DNA of 64,000 nucleotides from Gemmatimonadales bacterium (GCA_041602035.1 JBFIHA010000004.1:71888-135887), one strand, 5' to 3'. Positions 2,896 to 26,761 are shown, counted from the first letter of the stretch. Program-made: numbers and translations. The notes: generated by a model from the letters alone, not told the origin.

Positions 2896-4007
2896 CGGTA
2901 GAACTCCGCCACCGCCTCGATGACCGCCTCCTGCTGCGATGGAGTCAGCTCCGGATAGACCGGCAGGGACAACACTTCGTCACTGGCCCGCTCCGCCTCC
3001 GGCAATCGCCCGCGCTCGTAACCCAGCGGAGCAAAGCACGGCTGGAGATGCAGGCATTGAGGATAGTAGACCGCCGAGCCAATCCCTCGGGCCATCAGAT
3101 GGTCCCGCAGAGCGTCACGCCGATCCGCCCGAACCGTATACTGGTGGTAGGTGTGCTCATTTGTGGGATCGGCCATGGGTGAGGTAACCCCATCGATCGC
3201 GGCCAGCGCCGTGTCGTATCGCTGAGCGTGCTTCCGCCTGGCCGCGTTCCACACGTGGAGGTGTCGCAGCTTCACCAGCAGTACCGCGGCCTGCACCGTG
3301 TCCAAGCGGCTATTGGTTCCCACTTCGTCATGATGGTATTGCTTCGCCCCGCCATGCGTGCGGAGACGGCGCAGCCGATCCGCAAGCGCCTGATCCTGCG
3401 TGACGATCATCCCCCCATCTCCCCACCCACCGAGGTTCTTGCTCGGAAAGAACGAGAAGGCGGCGGTCGTTCCCAACTCTCCAGCCATTCGCCACGCACC
3501 ATCGATCCGGCGCCTCGCGCCGATGGCCTGCGCCGCATCTTCGATCACGGCGAGCCCGTGCTTGTCGGCAAGCGGTAGCAGGGACTCCATCGGTGCCATC
3601 TGACCGAACAAATGCACCGGGACGATCGCCCGGGTGCGCTCACGGACGTTCCGTGCCACTTGGGCCACGTCCAAATTGAACGTGACAGGGTCAATGTCGA
3701 CGAACACAGGCGTGCCACCAGCATTTGTGATGGCACCCGCAGTCGCAAAGAAGGTGAATGGCGAGGTGATGACCTCATCGCCGGGCTTGAGATCCAGCGT
3801 CTTGAGTGAAAGGAGCAATGCGTCAGTCCCCGAGGCGCATCCAATCCCGAAGCGCGCGTGGCTGAATTCCGCCACCGCTTCCTCGAGCTGCGTCACCGCC
3901 TCACCCATGATGAACCGCTGGGACTCCACGACGCCGAGGAGGGCCGGGATCACCTCGTCACGAATGGCATCGAACTGCGGGCGGAGGTCCAGCAACGGGA
4001 CGTTCAC
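2892..4007 (-). CDS. wbpE: DegT/DnrJ/EryC1/StrS aminotransferase, WbpE-like
   Basis: 371 aa. Sugar aminotransferase family features: GDEVITSPFTFFAT and the PLP-lysine region SFFPSKNLG. Confidence 0.8.
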   Translation of the reverse strand: MNVPLLDLRPQFDAIRDEVIPALLGVVESQRFIMGEAVTQLEEAVAEFSHARFGIGCASGTDALLLSLKTLDLKPGDEVITSPFTFFATAGAITNAGGTPVFVDIDPVTFNLDVAQVARNVRERTRAIVPVHLFGQMAPMESLLPLADKHGLAVIEDAAQAIGARRRIDGAWRMAGELGTTAAFSFFPSKNLGGWGDGGMIVTQDQALADRLRRLRTHGGAKQYHHDEVGTNSRLDTVQAAVLLVKLRHLHVWNAARRKHAQRYDTALAAIDGVTSPMADPTNEHTYHQYTVRADRRDALRDHLMARGIGSAVYYPQCLHLQPCFAPLGYERGRLPEAERASDEVLSLPVYPELTPSQQEAVIEAVAEFYR

Positions 4008-4037
4008 AAGGCCCTCAAATGCAAGAGAGGCAGTAAC

Positions 4038-4652
4038 TTACACACGTCGATCCGGGTCGGCAATTGACTCCAACCGTCCTTCTCGCTCGCGGTACGCAGC
4101 CCCACATCGATCGCACCTCCCCAGCCCATCATTCACATGCAGCCGTACACCACATTGGCACATCCAACCCACACGTCGCGCGGGCACGCCGACCATGAGC
4201 GCGTATGGTGGGACATTCGACGTCACCACCGCACCTGCCCCAATGAAGGCATACTCCCCGAGCGTAACCCCGCACACGACCGTGGCATTCGCGCCGATGG
4301 ACGCTCCGCGACGCACGAGCGTCGTCACGTACTCACCCTTACGTGACACGTGGCTTCTCGGGGTCGTCACATTCGTGAACACACACGAGGGCCCGCAAAA
4401 CACATCGTCTTCCAATACCACGCCCTCGTAGATCGACACGTTGTTCTGAATCTTCACGTTGTTGCCGATCTTGGTACCGGGCATGACGACGACATTTTGC
4501 CCAAGGCTACAACGCTCACCGATCTCCGCCCCGGGCATCACATGACAAAAATGCCAGATCTTGGTGCCCTTGCCGACAACCGCCCCGTCATCGACATACG
4601 AGCTTTCATGAACGCTATAGTCAGACAACTCAGTCTCCACCAAACAGAGCAA
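4038..4652 (-). CDS. wbpD: Hexapeptide-repeat N-acetyltransferase, WbpD-like
   Basis: 204 aa. Left-handed beta-helix repeats ([24 protein letters not shown]...[25 protein letters not shown]). Follows wbpE. Confidence 0.75.
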
Positions 4653-4701
4653 GCATTCACTCGCCGTCCACCACTCCGCCCCCCAATTCCCGCTTCCCGC
4701 T

Positions 4702-5793
4702 TCATTCCACCACCTTCACCTCCAACACCAACTGTACACCGTACTCCTGATACACACGCGCTCGCACCGTCTCAATCACCGATAGGACGTCCTTCGCGGT
4801 CGCGCCGCCAACGTTGATGATATAATTGGCATGCTTCCTCGACACTTCGGCCCCGCCAACCCGAAGCCCCTTGAGTCCCAACCCGTCAATCAGCTGGCCG
4901 GCGGTGCGCGGCCCACCGGCCGGCAGGGACTCAGCCGGGGGATTGCGGAACACCGAACCACAGCAGGGCTCGTTGAACGGCGTGCCGGCCTTGCGCCACC
5001 GGAAATGCTGCACCACGTCCTTTTCGAGATCGACCGGATCTGCAGGCTCGAGCACCAGCGTCGCGGACAGCACGACGGTGCCGTCGAGGCCACTCCCCCG
5101 ATACCGCCACCTGATGTCGCGCCCCAGCACGGTGCGTCGACTGCCATCCCCTTCCACGACCTCGACTTCTGCTACTGCGGAGGCGAAATCCTGCCCGTGG
5201 GCCCCCGCGTTCATGAACACGCCACCGCCCACCGTGCCCGGCACTCCAACCAAGCGATGGACGCCGGAGCGCCCGGCCCTTGCGGTCCGACGGGCCAACA
5301 GGGGGGTCGGAAGACCCGCACCGGCACGCCACCGTGTGTCGTCGCCACCGATCGCGGTTGCCAATCGATCCAGTCCTTTGCCCAAGCGGACGACGATACC
5401 GTCGAATCCCGCGTCCGACACGAGCATGTTCGAGCCGAGCCCCAACGCGAGCCATCGGCATCCGTTGTGGACGGCAAAGCGGACCGACTCGACGACATCA
5501 TCCTCCGACGAGGGGAATACCAGAGCGGATGCGGGGCCGCCGATGCGGTAGGTGGTGTACGGCGCGAGCGGTTCGTCGTATCGTACCTGCCCCGCGATCC
5601 GACCAGCCAGCTCCCGTAGCGCCTTCGGATGCAACGTGCGCTCCGCTAGCCGCGTGACGTCACATCGGCGGCCGTGCTCCGAGCGGTACGGGCGTGTGGC
5701 CCGTCGCGGAGCAGGCTGTGCGCAAGCTGGTACCACTCCTGCAGGCAGCGCACGCTCCCGTCCCGGCTCTTGAGCGCCAATACGGCGTCGCAC
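4702..5793 (-). CDS. murB: UDP-N-acetylenolpyruvoylglucosamine reductase; start codon uncertain
   Basis: Contains [26 protein letters not shown]...[10 protein letters not shown], matching the MurB FAD-binding domain. The longest ORF starts at GTG 5793 and overlaps the carB 3' end. An in-frame GTG also lies at 5736. Confidence 0.85.
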
Positions 5794-8700
5794 GCGGCAC
5801 TCGCCGCCGACATGGTCGTGATGTACGGCACGCGATGGTGGATCGCCGCGCGGCGAATGAGGTAGTCATCCCGCTGCGTCAGCTTGCCAAGGGGCGTGTT
5901 GACGAGGAGTTGGACAGCGCCGGAAACGACAAGGTCTACCGGATTCGGCCGCCCCTCATGGATCTTGAGGATCCGCTCACTCGGCACCCCTCGCAACCGC
6001 AGATACCGAGCGGTCCCCTCCGTCGCCACGATCTTGAAGCCCATCTCGTGAAACCGGCGAACGATCGGGAGCACGGTGGGCTTGTCGTAGTCGTTGACGG
6101 TCACAAAGACGGTGCCCTCCAAGGGAAGGGCATCGCCGACGGCGGTCTGGGCCTTGGCGAACGCCATGCCAAAGCTGTCCGCTACACCCATGACCTCTCC
6201 CGTGGAGCGCATTTCCGGGCCGAGGATGACGTCGACATTGGGCAGCTTCGAGAACGGGAAAACCGCCTCCTTCACCGCCACGTAGGGAATGGCAGGTTCG
6301 TCGGTCAGGCCCAGCTCCTGCAGGCGCTTCCCGCTCATCACGCCAGCAGCGAGCTTCGCCAACGGAGCCCCCGTTGCCTTGCTCACAAACGGCAAGGTCC
6401 GTGATGCCCGCGGATTCACCTCGAGCACGTAGACCACGCCGTCCTTGACGGCAAACTGCACGTTGATGACGCCAACCACGCCAAGTGCCTTCGCGAACGC
6501 CTTGGTGTGTGCTCGCATCGCGTCGATCGCCGGCTCGGCCAACAGATATGGCGGCAGCACACATGCCGAATCGCCAGAGTGCACGCCGGCGTCCTCGATG
6601 TGTTGCATCACGCCACCGATGACACAGTGCTCGCCGTCAGCGATGGCATCGACGTCGGCCTCGAACGCGTCCTCCAGAAACCGATCAATCAGCACCGGGT
6701 GCTGGGGAGAGGCCCGCGCTGCCTTGGCGAAGTAGTTGCGCAGCGCTTGTTCGTCGTAAACGATTTCCATGGCGCGTCCACCGAGCACGTACGACGGCCG
6801 CACGAGCACCGGGTACCCCACCTCGTTGGCAACCGCGATCGCCTCCTCCAAGTTTACGACGGTCCCGTTGGGCGGTTGCGTCACGCCGAGCGTCCGGGCG
6901 AGCGCATCGAATCGTCGGCGGTCTTCGGCCAGATCGATGGCTTCGGGACTGGTGCCAAGGATCGGAATGGCGGCGGCCTCCAGGCCCTTGGCGAGCTTGA
7001 GCGGCGTCTGCCCACCGAGTTGGACGACCACCCCCTTGGGTTGCTCCAATCGCACAATTTCGAGCACATCTTCCAGCGTGAGCGGCTCGAAGTAGAGCTT
7101 GTCCGAGATGTCGAAATCGGTGGAGACCGTCTCCGGGTTGGAGTTGATCATGATGGTCCGGTGTCCCAATTCTCGAAACGACAGACCGGCCCGCACGCAG
7201 CAGTAGTCGAACTCCACGCCTTGGCCGATCCGATTGGGGCCGCTCCCAAGGATGACCACCCCGTCGCTGCCGAGAGGCACGGATTCGTTCTCCTCCTCAT
7301 ACGAGGAGTAGTAGTAGGGCGTGGCCGAGGGAAACTCGCCGGCGCACGTATCTACGACCTTGTAGCCGGGATGGATTGCGAGCGCCCAGCGCCGTTCGCG
7401 TATCTGGTGCTCCGAGACGCCGCGGGCATCTCCCAACTGCCGATCGGAGAACCCCAACCGCTTCATCTCTCGCATCAGTGGGGGGTCGATATCCGGTGCC
7501 GCAGCGAATCGTCGCTCGGCATCGAGTAGCTCCTCCAGCTGCGACAAGAACCACGGATCGATACCGGTAAGCTCAGCGATCGTGTCCACGGGGATGCCGG
7601 CGAGCATCGCCCGCTTGATCTGAAAGATCCGTTCCGGGGTCGGTGTTCGAAGCGCAACACGGATCTCATCCGGATCGTCGGACTCCAATCGGTCGTCGGA
7701 GAGCGTGGCCCCGATCACCCACCCCGGGCGGTCGATCTCCAACGAGCGGAGGCCCTTTTGGAACGCCTCCTTGAACGTGCGGCCGATGGCCATGGACTCG
7801 CCTACCGACTTCATTTGCGTCGTGAGCCGAAAATCGGCCGTCGGGAACTTCTCAAAGGCGAACCGCGGGAACTTCGCCACCACATAATCGAGCACGGGCT
7901 CAAACGATGCCGGCGTGGTCTTCGTGATGTCGTTAGGGAGCTCGTCGAGCGTGTAGCCCACGGCCAGCTTCGTGCCGATCCGCGCGATCGGGAATCCCGT
8001 GGCTTTCGACGCCAGGGCCGACGAGCGGGAGACCCGCGGATTCATCTCGATCGTGAGCATTTCACCGGTCCGCGGATCCAGCGCAAACTGGATGTTGCAC
8101 CCGCCCGCATCCACGCCCACTTCGCGGATGATCGCAATAGCGGCATCCCGCATCACCTGGTATTCCCGGTCGGTGAGCGTCATCGCAGGTGCCACGGTGA
8201 TCGAATCTCCGGTGTGCACCCCCATGGGATCCATGTTTTCGATCGAGCACACGATCACCACGTTGTCGCGGTGGTCCCGCATGACCTCGAGTTCGAACTC
8301 TTTCCACCCGAGCACCGACCGCTCGACGAGCGCCGACTGCACTGGCGAGAGGTCCAGCGCTCGTTTGATCAGATCTTCGTACTCCTCGACGTTGTACGCG
8401 ACGCCACCGCCCGTGCCCCCGAGGGTGAACGACGGACGGATGATGGCCGGATACCCAACGTCCTCGATGCACCGGAGTGCCTCATCTTTCGAGCTCACGA
8501 CCGCCCCGGTGGGCACCGCGAGCCCAATGCGCTGCATCGCGGCACCGAATTCCCTGCGGTCCTCCGCGATGCGGATCGCGCGCTCGTCCGCCCCGATTAG
8601 CTCGACACCGAACCGCTCCAGGGTGCCATCCTGGACCAGCGCCATCGCCACGTTCAGTGCCGTCTGCCCACCCATCGTCGGGAGGAGGGCGTCCGGACGT

Positions 8701-19654: not shown

Positions 19655-20794
19655 TCAGTAGCGCGCCATGGTCGGGTCCACGACGTCGGCCCACGCCGCC
19701 ACGCCACCTTTCAAACTCCGCACATGCTCGAACCCTGCGTCGCGCAACACGTCCACCGCGCGTAGGGAACGACGGCCGTGATGGCAGATGGTGACGATCT
19801 CGCTCGACGGATCGAGCTCGTTCACGCGCTGTGAAAGCGTGCCCATGGGGATGAGTCGAGATGCTGGGATGTGACAGATCGCCCACTCGAGAGGCTCCCG
19901 CACATCGACCAGCACGATCGCATCGTTGCCTCGAAGCTCGCGCGCCAACTCGGCAGCCGTGACCTCGTACTCGCCCGCCGGTTCCTCCGCACCGTATCCG
20001 CAGAACGCTTCGTAGTCGATCAGCTCCCGAATCGTGGGCGAGGTCCCGCAGATAGGGCATGTCGGATCACGACGGATCACAAGCTCGCGGAATTCGAGGT
20101 TGAGCGCATTGAACAGCAGGAGGCGTCCCTCGAGCGTGGTACCAGTGCCCAGAATCAGCTTGATGGCCTCGAGTGCCTGAATGCTCCCGATGATTCCCGG
20201 CAGGACGCCCAGCACGCCGGCCTCGTCGCAGGATGGGATCAGGCCCGGCGGTGGTGGCTCCCTGAACAGGCAGCGGTAGCACGGCCCCGACGAGCGGCCG
20301 AACACCGACGCCTGTCCATCGAAGCGGAAGATCGCGCCGTAGACGTATGGAATCCCCAAGAGCACGCAGGCATCGTTCACCAGATACCTGGTCGGGAAGT
20401 TATCGCTCCCATCCACTACAACGTCGAACGCGCGACAGACGTCGAGCGCGTTGCTGGAGGAGAGACGGTCCTCGAACGTCCGGAGCGTGACGTGCGGGTT
20501 GAGGTCGCGCAGTCTCGCCGCGGCGGACGACACCTTGCTCGTGCCCACCGCCGACGTGCCGTGAACCACCTGCCGCTGCAGGTTCGTCGCGTCGAGGAGG
20601 TCGGAATCGACGATCCCGAGCGTTCCGACCCCTGCCGCGGCCAGGTAGAGCAGTGCTGGTGACCCGAGGCCTCCCGCCCCAACCACCAGCACACTCGCGG
20701 ACCGTAGCCGTTGCTGCCCCTCCAGCCCAATTTCTGGGAGGAGGAGATGTCGAGAGTATCTGGTAACCTCGTGCGGGCTCAGTTCGTCGGACAT
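19655..20794 (-). CDS. ThiF/MoeB-family adenylyltransferase fused to a C-terminal rhodanese domain (MoeZ/MoeBR-type)
   Basis: From the internal ATG at 20794: MSDELSPHEVTRYSRHLLLPEIGLEGQQRL...VVGAGGLGSP. It has two CxxC pairs (CYRC, CPIC) and a rhodanese active-site loop, CHHGRRS. Confidence 0.85.
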   Translation of the reverse strand: MSDELSPHEVTRYSRHLLLPEIGLEGQQRLRSASVLVVGAGGLGSPALLYLAAAGVGTLGIVDSDLLDATNLQRQVVHGTSAVGTSKVSSAAARLRDLNPHVTLRTFEDRLSSSNALDVCRAFDVVVDGSDNFPTRYLVNDACVLLGIPYVYGAIFRFDGQASVFGRSSGPCYRCLFREPPPPGLIPSCDEAGVLGVLPGIIGSIQALEAIKLILGTGTTLEGRLLLFNALNLEFRELVIRRDPTCPICGTSPTIRELIDYEAFCGYGAEEPAGEYEVTAAELARELRGNDAIVLVDVREPLEWAICHIPASRLIPMGTLSQRVNELDPSSEIVTICHHGRRSLRAVDVLRDAGFEHVRSLKGGVAAWADVVDPTMARY

Positions 20795-20951
20795 CGCGCG
20801 ACAGCCAGCGCTCGGGTCCCGGTGCTCGGAACCTGCCGATAGACGCCTCGGTGAGGAAGTCCCTCTCCGATTGGCGTAATCCCGATAAGCTTGGTAGGAT
20901 TTCGCGGCGTAGGTAGACTTGTGCCCCACCCCACCCCGCTGTCACTCACCG

Positions 20952-21392
20952 CTACCGCGCCACGAGAGCTTCGACTTCAGACTCCTGACGCATGAGGTCG
21001 GCGAGAGACACGCTCGACAGCATCTCATCGATCCTGCGCTGCAGCTCACGCCATACGGGCCGGAGACTGCAATCCCCGTCGGGGCCACACCGCGCAAGAT
21101 TCACCCGGTGTGCATCGCAATACACTTCGAACGTGCGATTCTCGGCCGCTTCCATCACGTCCTTCACCGAGATGCTCTGGGGATCGTGGGCCAGGAAATA
21201 CCCGCCCTTCGCTCCCCGCACGCTCTTCACCAGCCCCGCCCTTCGGAGCTTCAGCAGGATCTGCTCCACATAGTCGGCAGGGAGGCCCTCTCGTTCTGCC
21301 AGGTCCCGCGCAGGCGTCGGGGTCTCTCCTCCCTCCTTGGCCAGGTGGAGGGACACAATCAAGCCGTACTCGGCCCAAGTTGTGACTCGCAT
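20952..21392 (-). CDS. Rrf2-family transcriptional regulator (IscR/NsrR-like, three Cys)
   Basis: MRVTTWAEYGLIVSLHLAK... with a winged HTH (LLKLRRAGLVKSVRGAKGGYFL) and a C-x9-C-x5-C cluster-ligand-like pattern. Confidence 0.85.
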   Translation of the reverse strand: MRVTTWAEYGLIVSLHLAKEGGETPTPARDLAEREGLPADYVEQILLKLRRAGLVKSVRGAKGGYFLAHDPQSISVKDVMEAAENRTFEVYCDAHRVNLARCGPDGDCSLRPVWRELQRRIDEMLSSVSLADLMRQESEVEALVAR

Positions 21393-21451
21393 GGTGCCTC
21401 CCGTACCCAAATATCCGACGCCCGGGCTCGGAAAGCAAGATTATTCGGCTT

Positions 21452-22882
21452 TCAGGATTCGCCCGTGTCCCCCGGCACACCGAGGTCCGTCATGGCCCGG
21501 AGATCCAACACGGCGTCCAGCTCCTGCGGCGGAAGCAGCCCCTTCTCTTCCACCAGTTCTCGCACCGTCAGGTTTCGGCGCACGGCCTCCTCCGCCAGTC
21601 TGGCCGCCTCGGCGTACCCGATGCGGGGAGCCAGCGCCGTCACGATTGCCGGACTCCGCTCCAGCCAGTAGGCGCATTGCTCCTCGTTGGCGACGATCCC
21701 CGCCACACACCGCTCGGCCAACAGCCGAGTGGCGTTTGCCAATATCTCGACCGAAAAGAGGAGGTTGTGGGCGATGACGGGCATCATGACGTTCAGCTCG
21801 AGCTGGCCCGCCTCGGCCGCGGCCGCCACCGTGACGTCGTTCCCGATGACTTGGAAGCAGACCATGTTGGTCATCTCTGCGATCACCGGGTTCACTTTTC
21901 CCGGCATGATGCTCGATCCCGGCTGCACGGCCGGCAGACGAATCTCGGCGAGACCTGTTCGCGGCCCGGACGATAGGAGACGTACGTCATTGGCGATTTT
22001 GCCGAGATCGACCGCATAACTCCGGAGCAAGCCACTCACCGCCGCGAAGTCCCCCATGGACTGCATCAGCTGCACGCGGTCTCCTCCCTCCCGCACCGGA
22101 AGTCCCGTGAGTTGCGCAAGCTCCTCCACCATGCGTGCCGGGTATGCCGGCTCGACATTGAGCCCCGTACCCACGGCGGACCCGCCAATGTTCAGCTCCT
22201 CGAGCCACGTCGATCCCTGATTCAGCCGATCGACATTGCGTTCGACCGTCATGCCGAAGGCGGCGAACTCCTGGCCCAAGCGGATCGGCGTGGCATCCTG
22301 GAGGTGCGTTCGTCCCGACTTCAACACATCGTCAAAGGCCCTTCCCCTGTCGAGAAGTGCGCCTGCCAAGAGGCCCATGCACTCCGTCAGCCGTGGCAGA
22401 CTCGCCAGCATCGCCAATCGGATCGCCGTCGGGATGGTGTCGTTGGTGCTCTGCGCCATGTTGACGTGATCGTTGGGATGGATCGGACGGTACTCTCCGC
22501 GTCGGCCTCCCAGCAGCTCGTTGGCGCGGTTGGCGAGCACCTCGTTCACGTTCATGTTGTGACTCGTTCCAGCCCCCGCCTGATATGGATCGATCACGAA
22601 CTGATCGCGATGGTCACCGGCCAGCACCTCGTCGGCGGCGCGGACGATCGCGTCTGCCAAGTCCGGCCCGAGCCGCCCGGTGCCGTGGTGAACCCGTGCC
22701 GCCGATCGCTTGATCCACACCATCGCGTCGACGAACCGGTGCATCGGGCGAAGTCCTGATACCGGGAAGTTCTGGACGGCACGTGCCGTCTGGATGCCGT
22801 ACAGGGCCTTCGCGGGCACCGGGAACTCGCCCAGGGAATCGCGCTCGACGCGCGTCCCGGAAGCTTTGGGTTCGTGGGCCAT
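21452..22882 (-). CDS. aspA: Aspartate ammonia-lyase (class II fumarase/aspartase family)
   Basis: 476 aa. Has the GSSIMPGKVNPV signature. QAGAGTSHNMNVNEVLANRA...GEYRPIHPNDHVNMAQSTND is closer to the aspartase pattern than to FumC. Confidence 0.75.
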   Translation of the reverse strand: MAHEPKASGTRVERDSLGEFPVPAKALYGIQTARAVQNFPVSGLRPMHRFVDAMVWIKRSAARVHHGTGRLGPDLADAIVRAADEVLAGDHRDQFVIDPYQAGAGTSHNMNVNEVLANRANELLGGRRGEYRPIHPNDHVNMAQSTNDTIPTAIRLAMLASLPRLTECMGLLAGALLDRGRAFDDVLKSGRTHLQDATPIRLGQEFAAFGMTVERNVDRLNQGSTWLEELNIGGSAVGTGLNVEPAYPARMVEELAQLTGLPVREGGDRVQLMQSMGDFAAVSGLLRSYAVDLGKIANDVRLLSSGPRTGLAEIRLPAVQPGSSIMPGKVNPVIAEMTNMVCFQVIGNDVTVAAAAEAGQLELNVMMPVIAHNLLFSVEILANATRLLAERCVAGIVANEEQCAYWLERSPAIVTALAPRIGYAEAARLAEEAVRRNLTVRELVEEKGLLPPQELDAVLDLRAMTDLGVPGDTGES

Positions 22883-22884
22883 TT

Positions 22885-23445
22885 CTACCTCGTCACCTCG
22901 ACCCGCAGGGCATCGTTGAACCGGTTGAAGTAGCTGAAGAGGCCGGCGACCAACGTCACCTCGACGATCTCCTCTTCGTTCCAGTGTCGGGACAGCTCGC
23001 GATAATCCCGGTCAGTCACCGCGTGACCGCTGGCCGCGACGAGTTCACCGAACCGGAGCGCCGCCTTCCATCCCTCCCCCATCCCCTCGAGCGACGCCGG
23101 CACCGTGCTTTCGTCCTCCGGCGTTTCCACACGAACGGCCGAGATCCATGACTCCTGTGCGCCCAGCCGCCTTGCCAAGGCGGTGTGAGAGGCCAGTCAG
23201 TAGCGGCATCGGTTGATGGATGACACACGTACCGCCACCAACTCTTTGAGCAACGGGGGCACGTCGCCCTCGTTCATCACCGTCCGGAAATGTGCGATCA
23301 TGGTCTGCAGGTGCCGCGGTCGCGCGGCCACCGTCCGAAACATGTTCGGGATATTCCCCCGCTCGCGCAGGTAGGTCTCGAAGATCGCGCGCACGTCGCC
23401 GTCTACGTCATCGGGCCCACGGGGTCGAATACGGGGTTCGGTCAT
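22885..23445 (-). CDS. AhpD-like / carboxymuconolactone decarboxylase-family protein with in-frame TGA (23197-23199) at the second Cys of CxxC: candidate selenoprotein
   Basis: Track ORFs 23197..23553 and 22885..23178 are in the same frame. Reading through gives ...LKELVAVRVSSINRCRY-[TGA]-LASHTALARRLGAQ..., which fits the family motif C-x-x-C-x-x-x-H with TGA at the second Cys. The ATG at 23443-23445 gives MTEPRIRPRG. Confidence 0.7.
23167..23183 (-). promoter_or_regulatory. SECIS-like hairpin downstream of the AhpD-like UGA
   Basis: In the mRNA: CCGCCU-[UGGCA]-AGGCGG. 6-bp stem, with the apical loop at +23..+27 from the U of UGA. A possible lower stem pairs UGACU with AGUCA. Confidence 0.45.
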
Positions 23446-23459
23446 CGTGATGCGGCGTC

Positions 23460-23639
23460 CTAGTCGGAGCAGTCGCCCAGCGGGTAGGGGAAGCCGCAGT
23501 TGCGGCAGGGGTCCTTGCAGCCCCAGGGGCGCGCTGCGACCGGGAATCCGCACCGCAGACAGCGGAACAGCTCGTCGCCCAGGGGCGCCGGTGCCGCCGT
23601 ACCGCCCCCGACCCCGGATGTCGGCCGGGCCGTCGTCAC
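23460..23639 (-). CDS. Possible small (59 aa) Cys-rich zinc-ribbon-like protein
   Basis: GTG at 23637-23639, 7 nt after the MBL stop. The stop lies 14 nt before the AhpD-like ATG. Sequence ...LGDELFRCLRCGFPVAARPWGCKDPCRNCGFPYPLGDCSD. GC3 is very high. It fills an otherwise unexplained 180-nt gap in a tightly packed operon. Confidence 0.35.
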   Translation of the reverse strand: MTTARPTSGVGGGTAAPAPLGDELFRCLRCGFPVAARPWGCKDPCRNCGFPYPLGDCSD

Positions 23640-23646
23640 TCGCGGA

Positions 23647-24294
23647 TCAGGCAAGGGGAAACGCACCAGTGAGGAACGGATTCGACGCGCGTTCGCGACC
23701 CACTGTGGTTTCGGGACCGTGGCCGCAATACACGATGGTCTCGTCCGGGAGCGCCAGCAATTCCCGCCGGATGCTCTCCAGCAACGTCGTACCGTCACCA
23801 CCAGGAAGATCCACCCGGCCCACGGAGCCGGCGAACAGGGCGTCCCCGACAAAGGCAATCCCGTGACCCACGAACGCCACCGAGCCCGGGCTGTGACCGG
23901 GAACGTGCCGGACGGTGAACCGGTACGGTCCGACCGCGAGGGTGTCGCCCGCGTGAAGTTCGTGCTGCGGGGGCGGCGGTGGATCAACACGGATGCCGAA
24001 CCAGGCGCCTTGGCTCGCCGCGGCATCGTACAGCTGCCGATCCGCAGGATGGAGATACACTGGAACCGCTCGGCACTCGACCACGGCTGCCACCCCTTGG
24101 ATGTGATCGAGATGTGCGTGGGTCAACCAGACGGCACGGAGATCGAGGTGCTCTGATTCGAGTCGCTCGAGAAACAACTCGGCCTCTTCTCCAGGGTCGA
24201 CGATCACCGCATCCTGGCTCGCATCGTCCGCGATGATAAAGCCGTTCTCCTGAAACGCCCCCGTCGTGAGGCAGACAACCCTAGGATGCGCCAA
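23647..24294 (-). CDS. MBL-fold metallo-hydrolase (glyoxalase II / YcbL-like)
   Basis: Contains THAHLDHIQG, the HxHxDH motif, and VPGHSPGS. The start is uncertain: a TTG at 24292-24294 is proposed, while the ORF is open to 24384. Confidence 0.8.
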   Translation of the reverse strand: MAHPRVVCLTTGAFQENGFIIADDASQDAVIVDPGEEAELFLERLESEHLDLRAVWLTHAHLDHIQGVAAVVECRAVPVYLHPADRQLYDAAASQGAWFGIRVDPPPPPQHELHAGDTLAVGPYRFTVRHVPGHSPGSVAFVGHGIAFVGDALFAGSVGRVDLPGGDGTTLLESIRRELLALPDETIVYCGHGPETTVGRERASNPFLTGAFPLA

Positions 24295-25297
24295 TGCCGG
24301 CCGGCTCCCCGCGCTCCCGTTCGCGATCCTGGCGATCGACCAAGTACTTCTCCACGGCCATCGCCGCTGTCGTCGCGTCGCCAACCGCCGTCGTGATCTG
24401 ACGAACGAGCTGCACGCGGAGATCGCCGGCGGCGAACAGACCGGGAATCGACGTCATCATGTGACTGTCTGTGATGATGTACCCGCCAGCATCGTGGTCG
24501 AAGTGGCCTTTGATAAGTCCAGAATTCGGCGTGAACCCGATGAAGATGAACACTCCGCCAACGGGTAAGGTCGACTGCTCGCCCGTCTGCGTGTCCTTCA
24601 GGCGGAGTTGCGTCACACCTTTCGGGTCGCCCTCGACTTCCTCGACCACCCTGTTCCAGATCACCGCGATCTTTGGATTGGCGAGTGCGCGCTTCTGGAT
24701 GATCGGCGAGGCCCGAAGCTCGTCTCGCCGGTGAATGATGTACACCTTGGAGGCATAGCGCGTGAGGTAGTCGGCCTCCTCCACGGCGGCATCTCCACCT
24801 CCGATCACCGCCAGCACCTCGCCCTTGAAGAAGGCTCCGTCGCACACGGCACAGTACGAGACACCGCGTCCGGCAAACTCCTTCTCACCCGGGACGTCCA
24901 GTTTCCGCGGAGTGCCACCCGCCGTGATGATCACCGCCGGCGCCCGGTACTCCTTATCGAGCTGCGTGGTGACATCGAAGGTGCCGTCCGCTCGCTTGGC
25001 GATCGACTCCACCGTATCCATCACGAACTCGGCCCCGAACTTTTTGGCGTGATCAGCCATGCGCTGCGCCAGTTCGGGCCCCTTGATGCTCTCGAACCCG
25101 ATGTAGTCTTCGATCAGATCCGTGTTGAGGAGCTCACCACCCGGCATGCCGCGCTCGATCACGAGTGTTTTGAGCATCCCACGGCCCGCGTACATCGCTG
25201 CACAAAGCCCAGCGGGCCCCGCACCGACGATGATCACATCGTAGCCCTGTTCCGCGTCTCGGTCTTTCCGTTTCACGACTCCCTCGACTCCCATCAT
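24281..25297 (-). CDS. trxB: Thioredoxin-disulfide reductase
   Basis: From the internal ATG at 25297: MMGVEG...YDVIIVGAGPAGLCAAMYAGRG. Has the redox-active CAVCDG motif and a second Rossmann motif, AVIGGGDAAVEEA. Confidence 0.93.
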   Translation of the reverse strand: MMGVEGVVKRKDRDAEQGYDVIIVGAGPAGLCAAMYAGRGMLKTLVIERGMPGGELLNTDLIEDYIGFESIKGPELAQRMADHAKKFGAEFVMDTVESIAKRADGTFDVTTQLDKEYRAPAVIITAGGTPRKLDVPGEKEFAGRGVSYCAVCDGAFFKGEVLAVIGGGDAAVEEADYLTRYASKVYIIHRRDELRASPIIQKRALANPKIAVIWNRVVEEVEGDPKGVTQLRLKDTQTGEQSTLPVGGVFIFIGFTPNSGLIKGHFDHDAGGYIITDSHMMTSIPGLFAAGDLRVQLVRQITTAVGDATTAAMAVEKYLVDRQDRERERGEPAGIGAS

Positions 25298-25478
25298 AGT
25301 TCCGAGCTGTGTAGCATCGGTTCTCCAGCCTGCAGGCAGCATGCCGGTGCGTCGATCCCCGGCGATGCGACGGGCACGCCCGCTCCGGTGCCACCTCCTC
25401 AACAGCGGACGATCGGCTGACGTTCCCGTCGACCGTCGTAACCTATCACCGGTGGCCGCTGGAACGTGTCCGCGTTGC

Positions 25479-25919
25479 TCACTGCAGCGCGGCGAGCACC
25501 TCCTTGGCTCCGGGAGCGCCCCGGGCGGCAAATACCACGGTCCCGTCCCGATCGATCAGCACCACCGAGCGTTGGGTCTTCTGCCCGTCGGCCTTGAGGG
25601 CCCCGAACGTCCCCGTGGTCTCGCGATCCGGATCGCTCAGCAACGGGAACGGGAGCTTGAGCTTGGATGCGTAACGACCGTGGGCCTCGACGCCCGCCGG
25701 GTTGACGCCAAATGGCTGCACGTCCTGCTTCCGAAATCGCTCGATCTCATCGCGCACGGCGGAGAGTTGGCGGTTTCACCCCGGCGTGTTGTTCCCAGGA
25801 TAAAACACCAAGAACACGCGTGAGCCCTGCAACACGTCCGACAGCCGATACCGCTTCCCATCCGACGCGTCTAATGCGAAGTCCGGGGCGGCCTCCCCGA
25901 CGGTAATGAGGTCGGTCAT
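25479..25919 (-). CDS. Bcp-type peroxiredoxin with in-frame TGA (25776-25778) at the peroxidatic Cys: candidate selenocysteine peroxiredoxin
   Basis: Track ORFs 25776..25976 and 25479..25757 share a frame. Reading through gives MTDLITVGEAAPDFAL...VFLVFYPGNNTPG-[TGA]-NRQLSAVRDEIERFRKQDVQPFGVNP...PFPLLSDPD...VVLIDRDG, against the family consensus FYPxxxTPGCTxE. The ATG at 25917-25919 overlaps the PHP gene stop (ATGA). Confidence 0.75.
25745..25765 (-). promoter_or_regulatory. SECIS-like hairpin downstream of the peroxiredoxin UGA
   Basis: In the mRNA, +14..+34 from the U of UGA: UCUC-CGC-[CGUGC]-GCG-(AU bulge)-GAGA. The apical loop has GU at +22/+23. Confidence 0.45.
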
Positions 25920-26761
25920 CCTACCTCCTCGACTGAGATGCGTTGCTGGTGAAGGTACTCGATGTCGTTCAGCCACTGTGCTGGAACGGTGATGCTTCCA
26001 AGTGGCGCTCGATTCGGCTCGTCCGCGTCATCGCCGTGCCAATCAGTTCCACCCGTCCGCACCATACCCAGTGCGCCCGTGAGGTGCTCGATTTCTGTTC
26101 CGCGGCGGTCGTCGTGCAACGGATGCCGTACCTCCGCTCCGTCGACTCCGCGGGCGCGCAGCGACGCAAGACCGCGACGCGTCGCCCGGGAGCCTAGGTG
26201 CGCCGCCGACGTGACCCCCCCGAGCGAGCGGACCAGCCCCGTGACTTCCCGAACGCTGGGGAGGTCTTTGGGGACGAACGCAGGACGCCGAGAGCCGAGG
26301 AAGCGGTGGAACGCTTCGGGGATGTCGGCGACGTGACCGCCGCGAACCAACACCCTGGCGACGTGGGGTCGCCCGACCGCGCCGGCTCCGGCGGCGGACT
26401 CGACGTCCTCGAAGGAGACCGGAACTCCCAGCTCGCGGAGTCGGTCCACCATCTGCTGGGCCCGCACCACGCGCTTGCCCCGCTTGTCCGCGAGGAAGGC
26501 TTCGAGTCGAGGCTCCCCAAGTGGGAGGAAGTACGCTAGGAGATGCATCTCCCCCCACGGAGCCGCCACCGAGAACTCACATCCGGCGATGACCCGCACC
26601 CCCAGACGGCCCCCTTCGGCCTCCGCGTCGGCCAGGCCGGCCAGCGTGTCGTGGTCTGTCAGGGCGATGACCGAAAGCCCGTGTGCCGCCGCACGTCGCG
26701 CCACCTCCGTCGGCGGACATGCACCGTCGGAGGCGCTCGAATGCATGTGCAAGTCGATCAC
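25916..26761 (-). CDS. PHP-domain metal-dependent phosphoesterase (TrpH/YciV-like)
   Basis: MIDLHMHSSASDGACPP...IALTDHDTLAG; 281 aa. Confidence 0.85.
   Translation of the reverse strand: MIDLHMHSSASDGACPPTEVARRAAAHGLSVIALTDHDTLAGLADAEAEGGRLGVRVIAGCEFSVAAPWGEMHLLAYFLPLGEPRLEAFLADKRGKRVVRAQQMVDRLRELGVPVSFEDVESAAGAGAVGRPHVARVLVRGGHVADIPEAFHRFLGSRRPAFVPKDLPSVREVTGLVRSLGGVTSAAHLGSRATRRGLASLRARGVDGAEVRHPLHDDRRGTEIEHLTGALGMVRTGGTDWHGDDADEPNRAPLGSITVPAQWLNDIEYLHQQRISVEEVG

What the first reader, a model, noticed from the sequence alone, without database searches (positions are those of the whole stretch)
22885..23445. Second in-frame UGA at the CxxC redox centre of an AhpD-like (carboxymuconolactone decarboxylase family) protein
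Track ORFs 23197..23553 and 22885..23178 are co-framed. The junction reads ...VAVRVSSINRCRY-[TGA]-LASHTALARRLG.... The AhpD/CMD family active-site signature is C-x-x-C-x-x-x-H, and here it is C-R-Y-[UGA]-L-A-S-H. The stop therefore replaces the second catalytic Cys, with the downstream His at the correct spacing.

Starting 17 nt after the UGA is the hairpin CCGCCU-[UGGCA]-AGGCGG. Its G-containing apical loop lies at +23..+27, the same distance as in the peroxiredoxin gene 2.5 kb away. UGACU...AGUCA could form a lower stem.

AhpD-like proteins are among the computationally predicted bacterial selenoprotein families. Two independent catalytic-Cys-to-TGA coincidences in one operon argue strongly for Sec recoding over pseudogenisation.
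Basis: partly seen in the sequence, partly recalled or inferred. Interest (0 to 1): 0.8.

Follow-up and report, generated by a model that had tools for sequence, protein, structure and literature searches.

The report
Selenocysteine codon in AhpD-like gene
The in-frame TGA in this AhpD-like redox gene is almost certainly a real selenocysteine codon with its own recoding hairpin, but it belongs to a bacterial selenoprotein family known since 2005, so it is a correct call rather than a discovery.

Summary
On the minus strand, a 186-codon carboxymuconolactone-decarboxylase/AhpD-family gene (23445→22885) has one in-frame TGA at 23197-23199. It replaces the second Cys of the E…C-x-Y-C-x-x-x-H redox motif.

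- **Not an error or a pseudogene.** Independent assemblies from several metagenome studies keep the TGA. 78 of the 80 closest metagenomic relatives carry TGA at the same codon, and 2 carry TGC. The part downstream of the TGA is under purifying selection (dN/dS 0.15-0.39).
- **Recoding hairpin.** A 7-bp hairpin with a GGC loop (23167-23183) starts 13 nt after the TGA. It is 98.6% paired across 143 distinct sequences, with compensatory changes at four pairs. Cys-form relatives lack it.
- **Context.** The peroxiredoxin 2.5 kb away also has a conserved TGA at its peroxidatic Cys. The cluster PrxU–TrxR–MBL–AhpD(U) is syntenic across Gemmatimonadota.
- **Gap.** No selA, selB, selD or tRNA-Sec lies in the 64-kb window, so this genome's Sec machinery is inferred, not shown.
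- **Novelty.** CxxU AhpD-like selenoproteins are an established family, so this is a new member of a known kind, of low interest.

The parts
22885..23445 (-). AhpD-like / CMD-family selenoprotein gene. It has 186 codons including UGA-83; the ATG is at 23445-23443 and the TAG stop at 22887-22885.
   Evidence: Translation. Pfam CMD PF02627, E=7.9e-16. NCBIfam best full-length model is TIGR01926 peroxid_rel. Full-length alignment to 25 homologues.
23197..23199 (-). In-frame UGA (codon 83), read as selenocysteine. It takes the place of the second Cys of the C80-R-Y-U83 redox centre.
   Evidence: TGA is kept in 78 of 80 metagenomic relatives and in 121 of 121 genome pattern matches. No read or contig variant is seen here.
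23167..23183 (-). It lies inside codons T88-A-L-A-R-R93.
   Evidence: Fold. 98.6% of cells are paired in 143 distinct sequences. Compensatory CG↔UA changes occur at four pairs (57, 51, 17 and 17 cells). 0 of 500 shuffles reach this, and slid registers give 36-62% paired. Cys forms have only 1-5 of 7 pairs in register.
23185..23208 (-). Active-site motif C80-R-Y82-U83-L-A-S-H87. Together with E68 (23242-23244) it forms the AhpD-type proton relay Glu/Cys/Tyr/Cys/His.
   Evidence: E68, C80, Y82 and H87 are invariant columns in alignment A1. The spacing is identical to Glu36/Cys48/Tyr50/Cys51/His55 of PA0269 and Glu118/Cys130/His132/Cys133/His137 of M. tuberculosis AhpD (PMC3141380).
25479..25919 (-). 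Companion selenoprotein gene: a BCP/PrxQ-type peroxiredoxin. Its UGA at 25776-25778 replaces the peroxidatic Cys (TPG-U-N). A conserved hairpin is predicted at about 25746-25766.
   Evidence: TGA plus a near-invariant downstream nucleotide sequence is found in all 15 syntenic orthologues and in 3 further genomes whose AhpD is a Cys form.
24281..25297 (-). Thioredoxin-reductase-like flavoprotein between the two selenoprotein genes. The start codon is approximate.
   Evidence: Pfam Pyr_redox_2, E=3.7e-49. Syntenic in nearly all Gemmatimonadota loci.
23647..24384 (-). Metallo-beta-lactamase-fold hydrolase (glyoxalase-II-like), lying upstream of the AhpD-like gene with only the small Cys-rich ORF between them.
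   Evidence: Pfam Lactamase_B, E=1.2e-27. Syntenic.
23460..23639 (-). Small conserved Cys-rich ORF (up to 59 aa, ending ...CLRCG...WGCK.PC.NCG..YPLGDCSD*) between the MBL gene and the AhpD-like gene.
   Evidence: tblastn finds the 33-aa core in about 70 syntenic loci. It has no Pfam match. It is not called as a gene in L203, L204 or L206.

Best explanation
This is a selenoprotein gene. The mRNA of an AhpD-like (carboxymuconolactone-decarboxylase superfamily, TIGR01926/COG2128-type 'peroxidase-related') protein carries UGA at codon 83.

**Recoding (inferred mechanism).** A 7-bp GGC-loop hairpin begins 13 nt downstream of the UGA, inside the coding sequence. It acts as a bacterial SECIS. SelB·GTP·Sec-tRNA(Sec) binds the hairpin and delivers selenocysteine to the ribosome instead of release factor 2. 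The result is a full-length 186-residue protein.

**Catalysis (inferred).** Sec83 replaces the second Cys of the C-x-Y-C centre. It sits in the AhpD proton relay formed by E68, C80, Y82, U83 and H87. The protein therefore most likely works as a selenol/thiol-disulfide oxidoreductase that cycles through a C80-U83 selenenylsulfide.

**Pathway (inferred).** Its conserved neighbours are a Sec-containing PrxQ-type peroxiredoxin, a thioredoxin-reductase-like flavoprotein and an MBL-fold hydrolase. This suggests a peroxide or reactive-sulfur detoxification module in a marine-sediment Gemmatimonadota bacterium.

**Shown here:** the UGA, its conservation, translation-level selection on both sides of it, and the covarying hairpin.
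**Inferred:** SelB-dependent decoding in this genome, the redox chemistry, and the partnership with the peroxiredoxin.
For: 1. **Family and aligned residue.** The gene is a CMD/AhpD-family member. The UGA column holds Cys in 24 of 25 full-length homologues. E68, C80, Y82 and H87 are invariant.
2. **Conservation of the TGA in metagenomes.** 78 of the 80 best metagenomic relatives (55-82% identical) have TGA at this codon, and 2 have TGC.
3. **Conservation across genomes.** A TGA-specific pattern found 120 or more loci in species-representative genomes. By my arithmetic, about one match is expected by chance (roughly 40 bits of pattern over 1.2e12 positions). All 121 matches have AhpD-like sequence on both sides of the TGA. 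They come from Acidobacteriota, Gemmatimonadota, Chloroflexota, Pseudomonadota, Myxococcota, Verrucomicrobiota and Planctomycetota.
4. **Selection downstream.** Codons 84-186 keep frame and length (103-104 codons) in 13 orthologues. dN/dS is 0.15-0.39 at dS of 0.57-1.9.
5. **Hairpin covariation.** The stem is 98.6% paired in 143 distinct sequences. There are 143 double-change cells against 45.6 ± 4.3 in shuffles (0 of 500 reach this). Slid registers give 36-62% paired. Synonymous changes on the 5' arm (ACC/ACU, GCC/GCU/GUC, UUG/CUG) are matched by amino-acid changes on the 3' arm (RR/KQ/RQ/GR/ER). One sequence has a wholly different stem with the same loop.
6. **Cys-form control.** Five distinct Cys-form genes have only 1-5 of 7 pairs in register and no GGC loop. 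This holds even where the peptide T-A-L-A-R-R is identical (L206). Three of these genomes still carry the TGA peroxiredoxin.
7. **The TGA is not an assembly artefact**.
8. **Machinery next to family members.** tRNA-Sec, selA and selB lie next to AhpD-related TGA genes in L043 and L120, and selB is near one in L006.
9. **UGA is an ordinary stop in this window.** About half of the confident ORFs end in TGA.
10. **The family is a known selenoprotein family** (PMC2398784; PMC13188914).
Against: - No selA, selB, selD or tRNA-Sec is in the 64-kb window. The rest of the genome could not be searched.
- The literature I could search says nothing about Sec decoding in Gemmatimonadota.
- The hairpin alone does not fold better than shuffled sequence.
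- No Rfam family matches it.
- The TIGR01926 score, with U replaced by C, is 76.3 bits, just under the curated cut-off of 81.8.
- There is no protein-level evidence of selenium.
- The biochemical substrate of this AhpD-like subfamily is unknown.
Confidence: 0.9

Rival explanations
1. Pseudogene: a nonsense mutation at a former Cys codon (TGC/TGT→TGA) has inactivated the gene, and the downstream ORF is a decaying remnant.
For: TGA is one transition or transversion away from TGC/TGT. Cys forms exist in the same clade. No Sec machinery is seen in the window.
Against: The same TGA occurs in 78 of 80 relatives and in 121 genome loci across several phyla. The downstream 103 codons keep frame and length, with dN/dS of 0.15-0.39. 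A covarying hairpin is tied to the TGA forms only.
Confidence: 0.02
2. Assembly or sequencing error at 23197-23199: the true codon is TGC or TGT.
For: The source is metagenome-derived sequence, and a single base would suffice.
Against: Independent Logan assemblies from runs in three or more studies agree on TGA. They include contigs with 7-15 other differences in the same 70-130 nt. The variable sites nearby (23188, 23191, 23194) are all third codon positions.
Confidence: 0.01
3. UGA read-through without selenium: the hairpin slows termination and a near-cognate tRNA (Trp or Cys) is inserted. Alternatively, the organism lost Sec machinery and relies on leaky suppression.
For: Machinery is unverified for this genome. 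One homologue (P0026) has Trp (TGG) in this column. Downstream RNA structures can stimulate read-through (general knowledge).
Against: The position is the catalytic Cys in homologues, and Trp there would kill the redox centre. The hairpin's position and G-containing apical loop fit bacterial SECIS rules as I recall them (my own knowledge, not checked here). A second gene in the cluster has UGA at its catalytic Cys. Family members sit beside tRNA-Sec, selA and selB.
Confidence: 0.04
4. Genuinely split gene: two polypeptides (82 aa and about 97 aa) are made separately and assemble.
For: Gene callers annotate it this way (L001). A TTG at 23178 could start the second ORF.
Against: The split would cut the C-x-x-C-x-x-x-H centre between two chains. 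The candidate TTG lies inside the conserved hairpin and is simply the Leu90 codon. The break is always exactly a single TGA at the Cys column, with no spacer, overlap or start-codon conservation.
Confidence: 0.02

Closest known systems
AhpD-like CxxU selenoprotein family ('AhpD-like 1', COG2128 / TIGR01926 'peroxidase-related enzyme'). It was predicted from Sargasso Sea and GOS metagenomes (PMC1088965, PMC2398784) and is listed in the 2026 review of prokaryotic selenoproteomes (PMC13188914).
   Same: The domain is the same (best full-length NCBIfam model is TIGR01926, residues 6-182). The CxxU motif is the same, with Sec at the second Cys. Cys homologues exist. The SECIS lies directly downstream inside the ORF. 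The setting is marine or sediment. An adjacency of Prx-like and AhpD-like selenoprotein genes was already noted in GOS reads.
   Different: The host lineage is Gemmatimonadota, which none of the papers I could search mention for Sec. The TIGR01926 score falls 5.5 bits short of the curated cut-off. In this clade the Sec form is the rule (78 of 80) rather than the minority. The gene sits in a fixed cluster: PrxU-TrxR-MBL-small Cys-rich ORF-AhpD(U).
Mycobacterium tuberculosis AhpD (TIGR00777), the adaptor that re-reduces AhpC using lipoamide from DlaT and Lpd.
   Same: The superfamily is the same, and so is the proton-relay geometry: Glu(-12)-Cys-x-[His/Tyr]-Cys-x-x-x-His (PMC3141380). It is encoded near a peroxiredoxin. 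A 2-oxoacid dehydrogenase E2 gene lies about 3.6 kb (five genes) upstream.
   Different: It is not an orthologue: TIGR00777 scores 20.4 bits against a cut-off of 192. The architecture is a single domain of about 180 aa, with Tyr instead of His132 and Sec instead of Cys133. The neighbouring peroxiredoxin is BCP/PrxQ-type, not AhpC.
Solved 'uncharacterized peroxidase-related protein / AhpD core' structures 2pfx, 2prr and 2oyo, and AhpD 6k40.
   Same: These are the closest solved sequences (E = 3.8e-11 to 3.2e-9, aligned over about 160 residues). The motif SSINKCFYCLVAH aligns with SSINRCRY-U-LASH.
   Different: All are Cys proteins, their functions are mostly unassigned, and identity is low.
NCBIfam NF041238 'AhpD_rel_CFYUT' and NF053654 'YciW-related (seleno)protein'.
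   Same: They are AhpD-related selenoproteins with CxxU. The CFY-U-T group turned up in the same pattern scan, sometimes next to tRNA-Sec, selA and selB.
   Different: The window protein scores far below their cut-offs (41.8 against 175, and 56.2 against 310). Those proteins are longer (about 360 aa) or belong to a different subfamily, and their downstream RNA differs.
Escherichia coli fdhF SECIS, the bacterial paradigm.
   Same: From general knowledge: a stem-loop within the ORF starts just over 10 nt after UGA, has G in the apical loop, and is bound by SelB.
   Different: The sequence differs. Here the stem is a short perfect 7-bp helix with a GGC apex (or UGGCA pentaloop) and no conserved lower helix. 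SelB binding was not tested.

Membership tests
CMD / AhpD superfamily (Pfam PF02627) | Significant match to the CMD domain model above the gathering score. | tested here: met
   PF02627 scores 58.3 bits against a cut-off of 23, E=7.9e-16. TIGR00778 ahpD_dom scores 54.9 against 27.8.
CMD / AhpD superfamily (Pfam PF02627) | AhpD-type catalytic relay: Glu, Cys-x-(His/Tyr)-Cys, and His four residues on. | tested here: met
   E68, C80, Y82, [U83] and H87 are invariant columns in A1. The spacing equals that of PA0269 and MtAhpD (PMC3141380). The second Cys is encoded by UGA.
CMD / AhpD superfamily (Pfam PF02627) | All-helical AhpD fold. | not tested
   Only sequence similarity to solved AhpD-core structures was checked (2pfx E=3.8e-11, 2prr, 2oyo, 6k40). 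No structure was predicted.
AhpD-like CxxU selenoprotein family (TIGR01926 / COG2128 type) | In-frame UGA aligned with the redox Cys of Cys-containing homologues, with conserved protein sequence on both sides. | tested here: met
   dN/dS downstream of the UGA is 0.15-0.39.
AhpD-like CxxU selenoprotein family (TIGR01926 / COG2128 type) | Bacterial SECIS: a stem-loop in the ORF shortly after UGA, with G in the apical loop. | tested here: met
   The hairpin at +17..+33 has a GGC apex. It is 98.6% paired with compensatory changes at four pairs, and Cys forms lack it. SelB binding itself was not tested.
AhpD-like CxxU selenoprotein family (TIGR01926 / COG2128 type) | Score above the curated cut-off of the family HMM TIGR01926. 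| tested here: inconclusive
   With U replaced by C the score is 76.3 bits against a cut-off of 81.8. It is the best full-length model (residues 6-182 on profile positions 3-173 of 178).
AhpD-like CxxU selenoprotein family (TIGR01926 / COG2128 type) | Sec-decoding machinery (selA, selB, selC/tRNA-Sec, selD) in the same genome. | not testable with these tools
It is present beside related genes in other phyla (L043, L120, L006).
AhpD-like CxxU selenoprotein family (TIGR01926 / COG2128 type) | Selenium physically present in the protein. | not testable with these tools
   This needs 75Se labelling or mass spectrometry.
Bona fide AhpD (TIGR00777, M. tuberculosis type) | Score above the curated cut-off of the subfamily HMM. 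| tested here: not met
   20.4 bits against 191.95. It works like an AhpD-type redox centre but is not an AhpD orthologue.
NF041238 AhpD_rel_CFYUT / NF053654 YciW-related (seleno)protein | Score above the curated cut-off. | tested here: not met
   41.8 against 175, and 56.2 against 310. The motif here is CRY-U-L, not CFY-U-T.

The most novel reading that the evidence does not exclude
In Gemmatimonadota the conserved cluster forms a dedicated two-selenoprotein relay. The cluster is PrxU, a TrxR-like flavoprotein, an MBL-fold hydrolase, an unannotated six-Cys peptide and AhpD(U), flanked by a lipoamide E2. In this reading the Sec-AhpD-like protein is the direct reductant of the Sec-peroxiredoxin, analogous to mycobacterial AhpC/AhpD/DlaT but selenium-based. 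It would explain why the Sec form is the default state of this clade (78 of 80), and it would make Gemmatimonadota a Sec-decoding phylum that has been overlooked because the genes are routinely called as split ORFs.
Probability: 0.25. Interest if true: 0.45.

Novelty: new member of a known kind. Interest (0 to 1): 0.25.

Why it matters
Practically, it is an annotation fix. This gene and its many relatives are called as two fragments (82 aa and 97 aa). As a result, the protein search returned only the rarer Cys forms as full-length proteins, at 58% identity or less. Yet the DNA collections hold Sec forms up to 82% identical.

Biologically, it adds a well-supported pair of selenoprotein genes. 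It also gives a clean, covariation-backed SECIS example for a phylum that the papers I could search do not mention as using selenocysteine. The Sec/Cys pairs in otherwise syntenic genomes are a natural experiment on how SECIS structure constrains codon and amino-acid choice.

It does not open a new kind of biology. The family, the motif and the mechanism are textbook for bacterial selenoproteins.

Tried and rejected
- **Rfam.** A gathering-threshold scan of the whole window and an E≤10 scan of 22800-26000 gave no SECIS or other RNA family apart from two tRNAs.
- **Single-sequence folding.** The hairpin forms, but the energies match shuffled controls (z = -0.09 to -0.54). Only comparative data are informative.
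- **Proposed lower stems.** UGACU/AGUCA is not used in the MFE fold and is not conserved. A candidate lower helix (UCNCA/UGGGN) failed the count, with pairs 16-45, 19-42 and 20-41 unpaired in 37-61% of sequences.
- **Sec machinery in the window.** No tRNA-Sec was found by ARAGORN or Rfam. No SelA, SelB or SelD appeared on inspecting the ORF translations or by tblastn with the E. coli proteins. None was found in the Gemmatimonadota loci either.
- **Literature.** Searches for Sec decoding in Gemmatimonadetes/Gemmatimonadota found nothing relevant.
- **Other candidate Sec codons.** A scan of the window for more in-frame TGAs flanked by coding-like sequence found only the AhpD-like and Prx sites to be credible.
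- **Recoded genetic code (UGA = Trp or Gly).** Rejected, because TGA ends about half of the confident ORFs and the aligned residue is Cys.
- **Steps deliberately skipped.** I ran no further search on SelB. The best-120 list would be dominated by the query's own phylum and could not link machinery to this genome.

Full report
**What is in the sequence**

On the minus strand an ORF starts at ATG 23445 and ends at TAG 22887-22885. It has 186 codons and one internal stop, TGA at 23199-23197 (codon 83). The junction reads VAVRVSSINRCRY-TGA-LASHTALARRLG.

With Cys substituted for the stop, the protein matches Pfam CMD (PF02627, 58.3 bits, E=7.9e-16). Among NCBIfam models it matches TIGR01926 'peroxidase-related enzyme' best, over its whole length. 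That score is 76.3 bits, just under the 81.8 cut-off. It also passes the AhpD core-domain model TIGR00778. It is far below threshold for true AhpD (TIGR00777) and for the two '(seleno)protein' AhpD-related models, NF041238 and NF053654.

The closest solved structures are 'uncharacterized peroxidase-related protein / AhpD core' entries 2pfx, 2prr and 2oyo, and AhpD 6k40. Their C-x-Y-C aligns with C-R-Y-TGA.

**The TGA sits on the catalytic Cys**

A database search returned full-length Cys homologues of about 180 aa, many from Gemmatimonadales, at 58% identity or less. In a 26-sequence alignment the TGA column is Cys in 24 of 25 homologues and Trp in one. K67, E68, S75, N78, C80, Y82, S86 and H87 are invariant.

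E68/C80/Y82/[83]/H87 has exactly the spacing of the proton relay described for AhpD-type proteins. That relay is Glu36/Cys48/Tyr50/Cys51/His55 in PA0269 and Glu118/Cys130/His132/Cys133/His137 in M. tuberculosis AhpD (PMC3141380).

**It is not an error**

A Logan assembly of a different run (L001) covers 21211-23449 with three SNPs, none at the TGA. I laid contigs from runs of several studies (marine and sediment metagenomes) on the region. No variant appeared at 23197-23199. This includes contigs from more diverged relatives, with 7 to 15 differences in 70-130 nt. The nearby variable sites 23188, 23191 and 23194 are all third codon positions.

**It is not a pseudogene**

- A metagenome scan for relatives kept the 80 best loci, at 55-82% identity. 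Of these, 78 carry TGA at this codon and 2 carry TGC.
By my arithmetic about one match is expected by chance.
- All 121 matches encode AhpD-like sequence on both sides of the TGA. They come from Acidobacteriota, Gemmatimonadota, Chloroflexota, Alpha-, Beta- and Gammaproteobacteria, Myxococcota, Verrucomicrobiota and Planctomycetota.
- In 13 close orthologues the region downstream of the TGA is always 103-104 codons long. It evolves with dN/dS of 0.15-0.39 at dS of 0.57-1.9. The N-terminal part shows dN/dS of 0.08-0.14. So the downstream part is translated.

**The recoding signal**

On its own it is unremarkable (z about -0.1 to -0.5 against shuffles), and Rfam has no match.

Across 143 distinct TGA-form sequences, however, 98.6% of the 1001 stem cells pair. 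Four pairs switch between C-G and U-A (57, 51, 17 and 17 cells), and a fifth carries one G-C to C-G change. There are 143 double-change cells against 45.6 ± 4.3 in shuffles (0 of 500 reach this). Sliding the 3' arm by 1-3 columns drops pairing to 36-62%.

The changes link synonymous sites on the 5' arm (ACC/ACU, GCC/GCU/GUC, UUG/CUG) to amino-acid replacements on the 3' arm (Arg-Arg, Lys-Gln, Arg-Gln, Gly-Arg, Glu-Arg). Protein constraints would not produce this pattern. One Sec form (L107) has an entirely different stem, GCAGCUGGCAGCUGC, with the same apex.

Five distinct Cys-form genes have only 1-5 of 7 pairs in register and no GGC loop. L206 encodes the same peptide T-A-L-A-R-R with different codons.

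**Context**

The peroxiredoxin 2.5 kb upstream on the same strand (25919→25479, AhpC-TSA, E=3e-33) has TGA at 25778-25776, exactly at the peroxidatic Cys (FYPGNNTPG-U-NRQL).

The gene order is: E2 acyltransferase, small ORF, PHP, PrxU, TrxR-like, MBL-fold, AhpD(U), aspartase/fumarase-class lyase, Rrf2, MoeB/ThiF-rhodanese. This order recurs in dozens of Gemmatimonadota loci, which places the window in that phylum.

All 15 syntenic Prx orthologues carry the TGA. About 33 nt of nearly invariant sequence follow it, including synonymous sites, and it folds into a small hairpin with a CGUGC apex at +21..+25. Three genomes whose AhpD-like gene is a Cys form still have the TGA peroxiredoxin. So the lineage keeps Sec decoding even where AhpD reverted or never converted.

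No other credible in-frame TGA was found in the window.

**Sec machinery**

The window holds only tRNA-Leu and tRNA-Ala. It has no SelA, SelB or SelD by inspection or by tblastn with the E. coli proteins.

At family level there is support. tRNA-Sec lies beside AhpD-related TGA genes in L043 and L120. selA and selB flank it in L043, selB in L120, and a selB lies 4.6 kb from the TGA gene in L006.

UGA is an ordinary stop in this window, which excludes a reassigned genetic code.

**Mechanism proposed**

- Shown: a UGA, with a tightly conserved SECIS-type hairpin 13 nt downstream, replaces the second redox Cys of an AhpD-type centre, and both halves are under protein-level selection.
- Inferred: SelB·GTP·Sec-tRNA(Sec) docks on the hairpin and inserts Sec83. 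The enzyme then cycles between a selenolate/thiol state and a C80-U83 selenenylsulfide, assisted by E68, Y82 and H87.
- More speculative: it may re-reduce the neighbouring Sec-peroxiredoxin, or act on another disulfide or persulfide substrate. Electrons would come from the adjacent TrxR-like flavoprotein, or, by analogy with mycobacterial AhpD, from lipoamide on the nearby E2.

**Comparison with what is known**

CxxU AhpD-like proteins were predicted as selenoproteins from the Sargasso Sea data (PMC1088965). They were the fourth most abundant family in GOS: 'AhpD-like 1, COG2128, CxxU', with 299 genes against 902 Cys homologues (PMC2398784). That paper also noted a read carrying adjacent Prx-like and AhpD-like selenoprotein genes.

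The 2026 review lists 'AhpD-like protein, TIGR01926, CxxU', 'CMD-like protein, PF02627, CxxU' and 'AhpD-related protein, NF041238, CxxU' (PMC13188914). BSepDB has an AhpD-like family page.

The present gene is therefore a new member of a known kind. The modest additions are the host phylum (not mentioned in any paper I could search), the dominance of the Sec form in this clade, the fixed two-selenoprotein cluster, and a clean covariation data set for its SECIS.

**Verdict**

Confidence that the UGA encodes Sec is about 0.9. The residual doubt is the unverified machinery and the absence of protein evidence. Interest is low (0.25), because a specialist would expect exactly this.

Noticed in passing
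window 25479-25919 (-), TGA at 25776-25778: A BCP/PrxQ-type peroxiredoxin has TGA at the peroxidatic Cys (TPG-U-NRQL). All 18 syntenic orthologues examined keep the TGA. About 33 nt of near-invariant sequence follow it, including synonymous sites, and a predicted hairpin has a CGUGC apex at +21..+25.
   Followed up: partly
window 23460-23639 (-): A small unannotated Cys-rich ORF lies between the MBL-fold gene and the AhpD-like gene. Its 33-aa core, C-[LM]-[RK]-C-G...W-G-C-K-x-P-C-x-N-C-G-x-x-Y-P-L-G-D-C-S-D-stop, is conserved in about 70 Gemmatimonadota loci. It has no Pfam match and is not called as a gene in L203, L204 or L206.
   Followed up: partly
L203, L204, L206 (Gemmatimonadales contigs): Genomes whose AhpD-like gene is the Cys form still carry the TGA peroxiredoxin. 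They also have an LPG_synthase_TM gene inserted just before the AhpD-like gene, and extra SDR and DUF309 genes between Prx and TrxR.
   Followed up: partly
L043:1548-1641 and 2964-6229; L120:1238-1331; L006:307-1698: tRNA-Sec lies next to AhpD-related CFY-U-T selenoprotein genes in two proteobacterial loci. selA and selB flank it in L043, and selB in L120. A selB homologue lies 4.6 kb from the TGA-form AhpD-like gene of a Terriglobia MAG.
   Followed up: partly
protein P0026 (alignment A1, column of residue 83): One full-length homologue has Trp (CEYWLDSH) where the others have Cys or Sec. TGG is one base from TGA, so this may be a miscalled base, a gene-caller artefact or a real inactive variant.
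   Followed up: no
window 19655-20929 (-): A MoeB/ThiF-rhodanese fusion lies at the end of the conserved cluster. It has Cys in the rhodanese loop (CHHGRRS). MoeB is listed among the known selenoprotein families in the 2026 review, and here it is the Cys form.
   Followed up: no
The protein search returned only Cys forms as full-length proteins (58% identity or less). The DNA collections hold Sec forms up to 82% identical. Gene callers split the Sec forms into two ORFs, as seen in L001 (83-aa and 97-aa fragments).
   Followed up: yes
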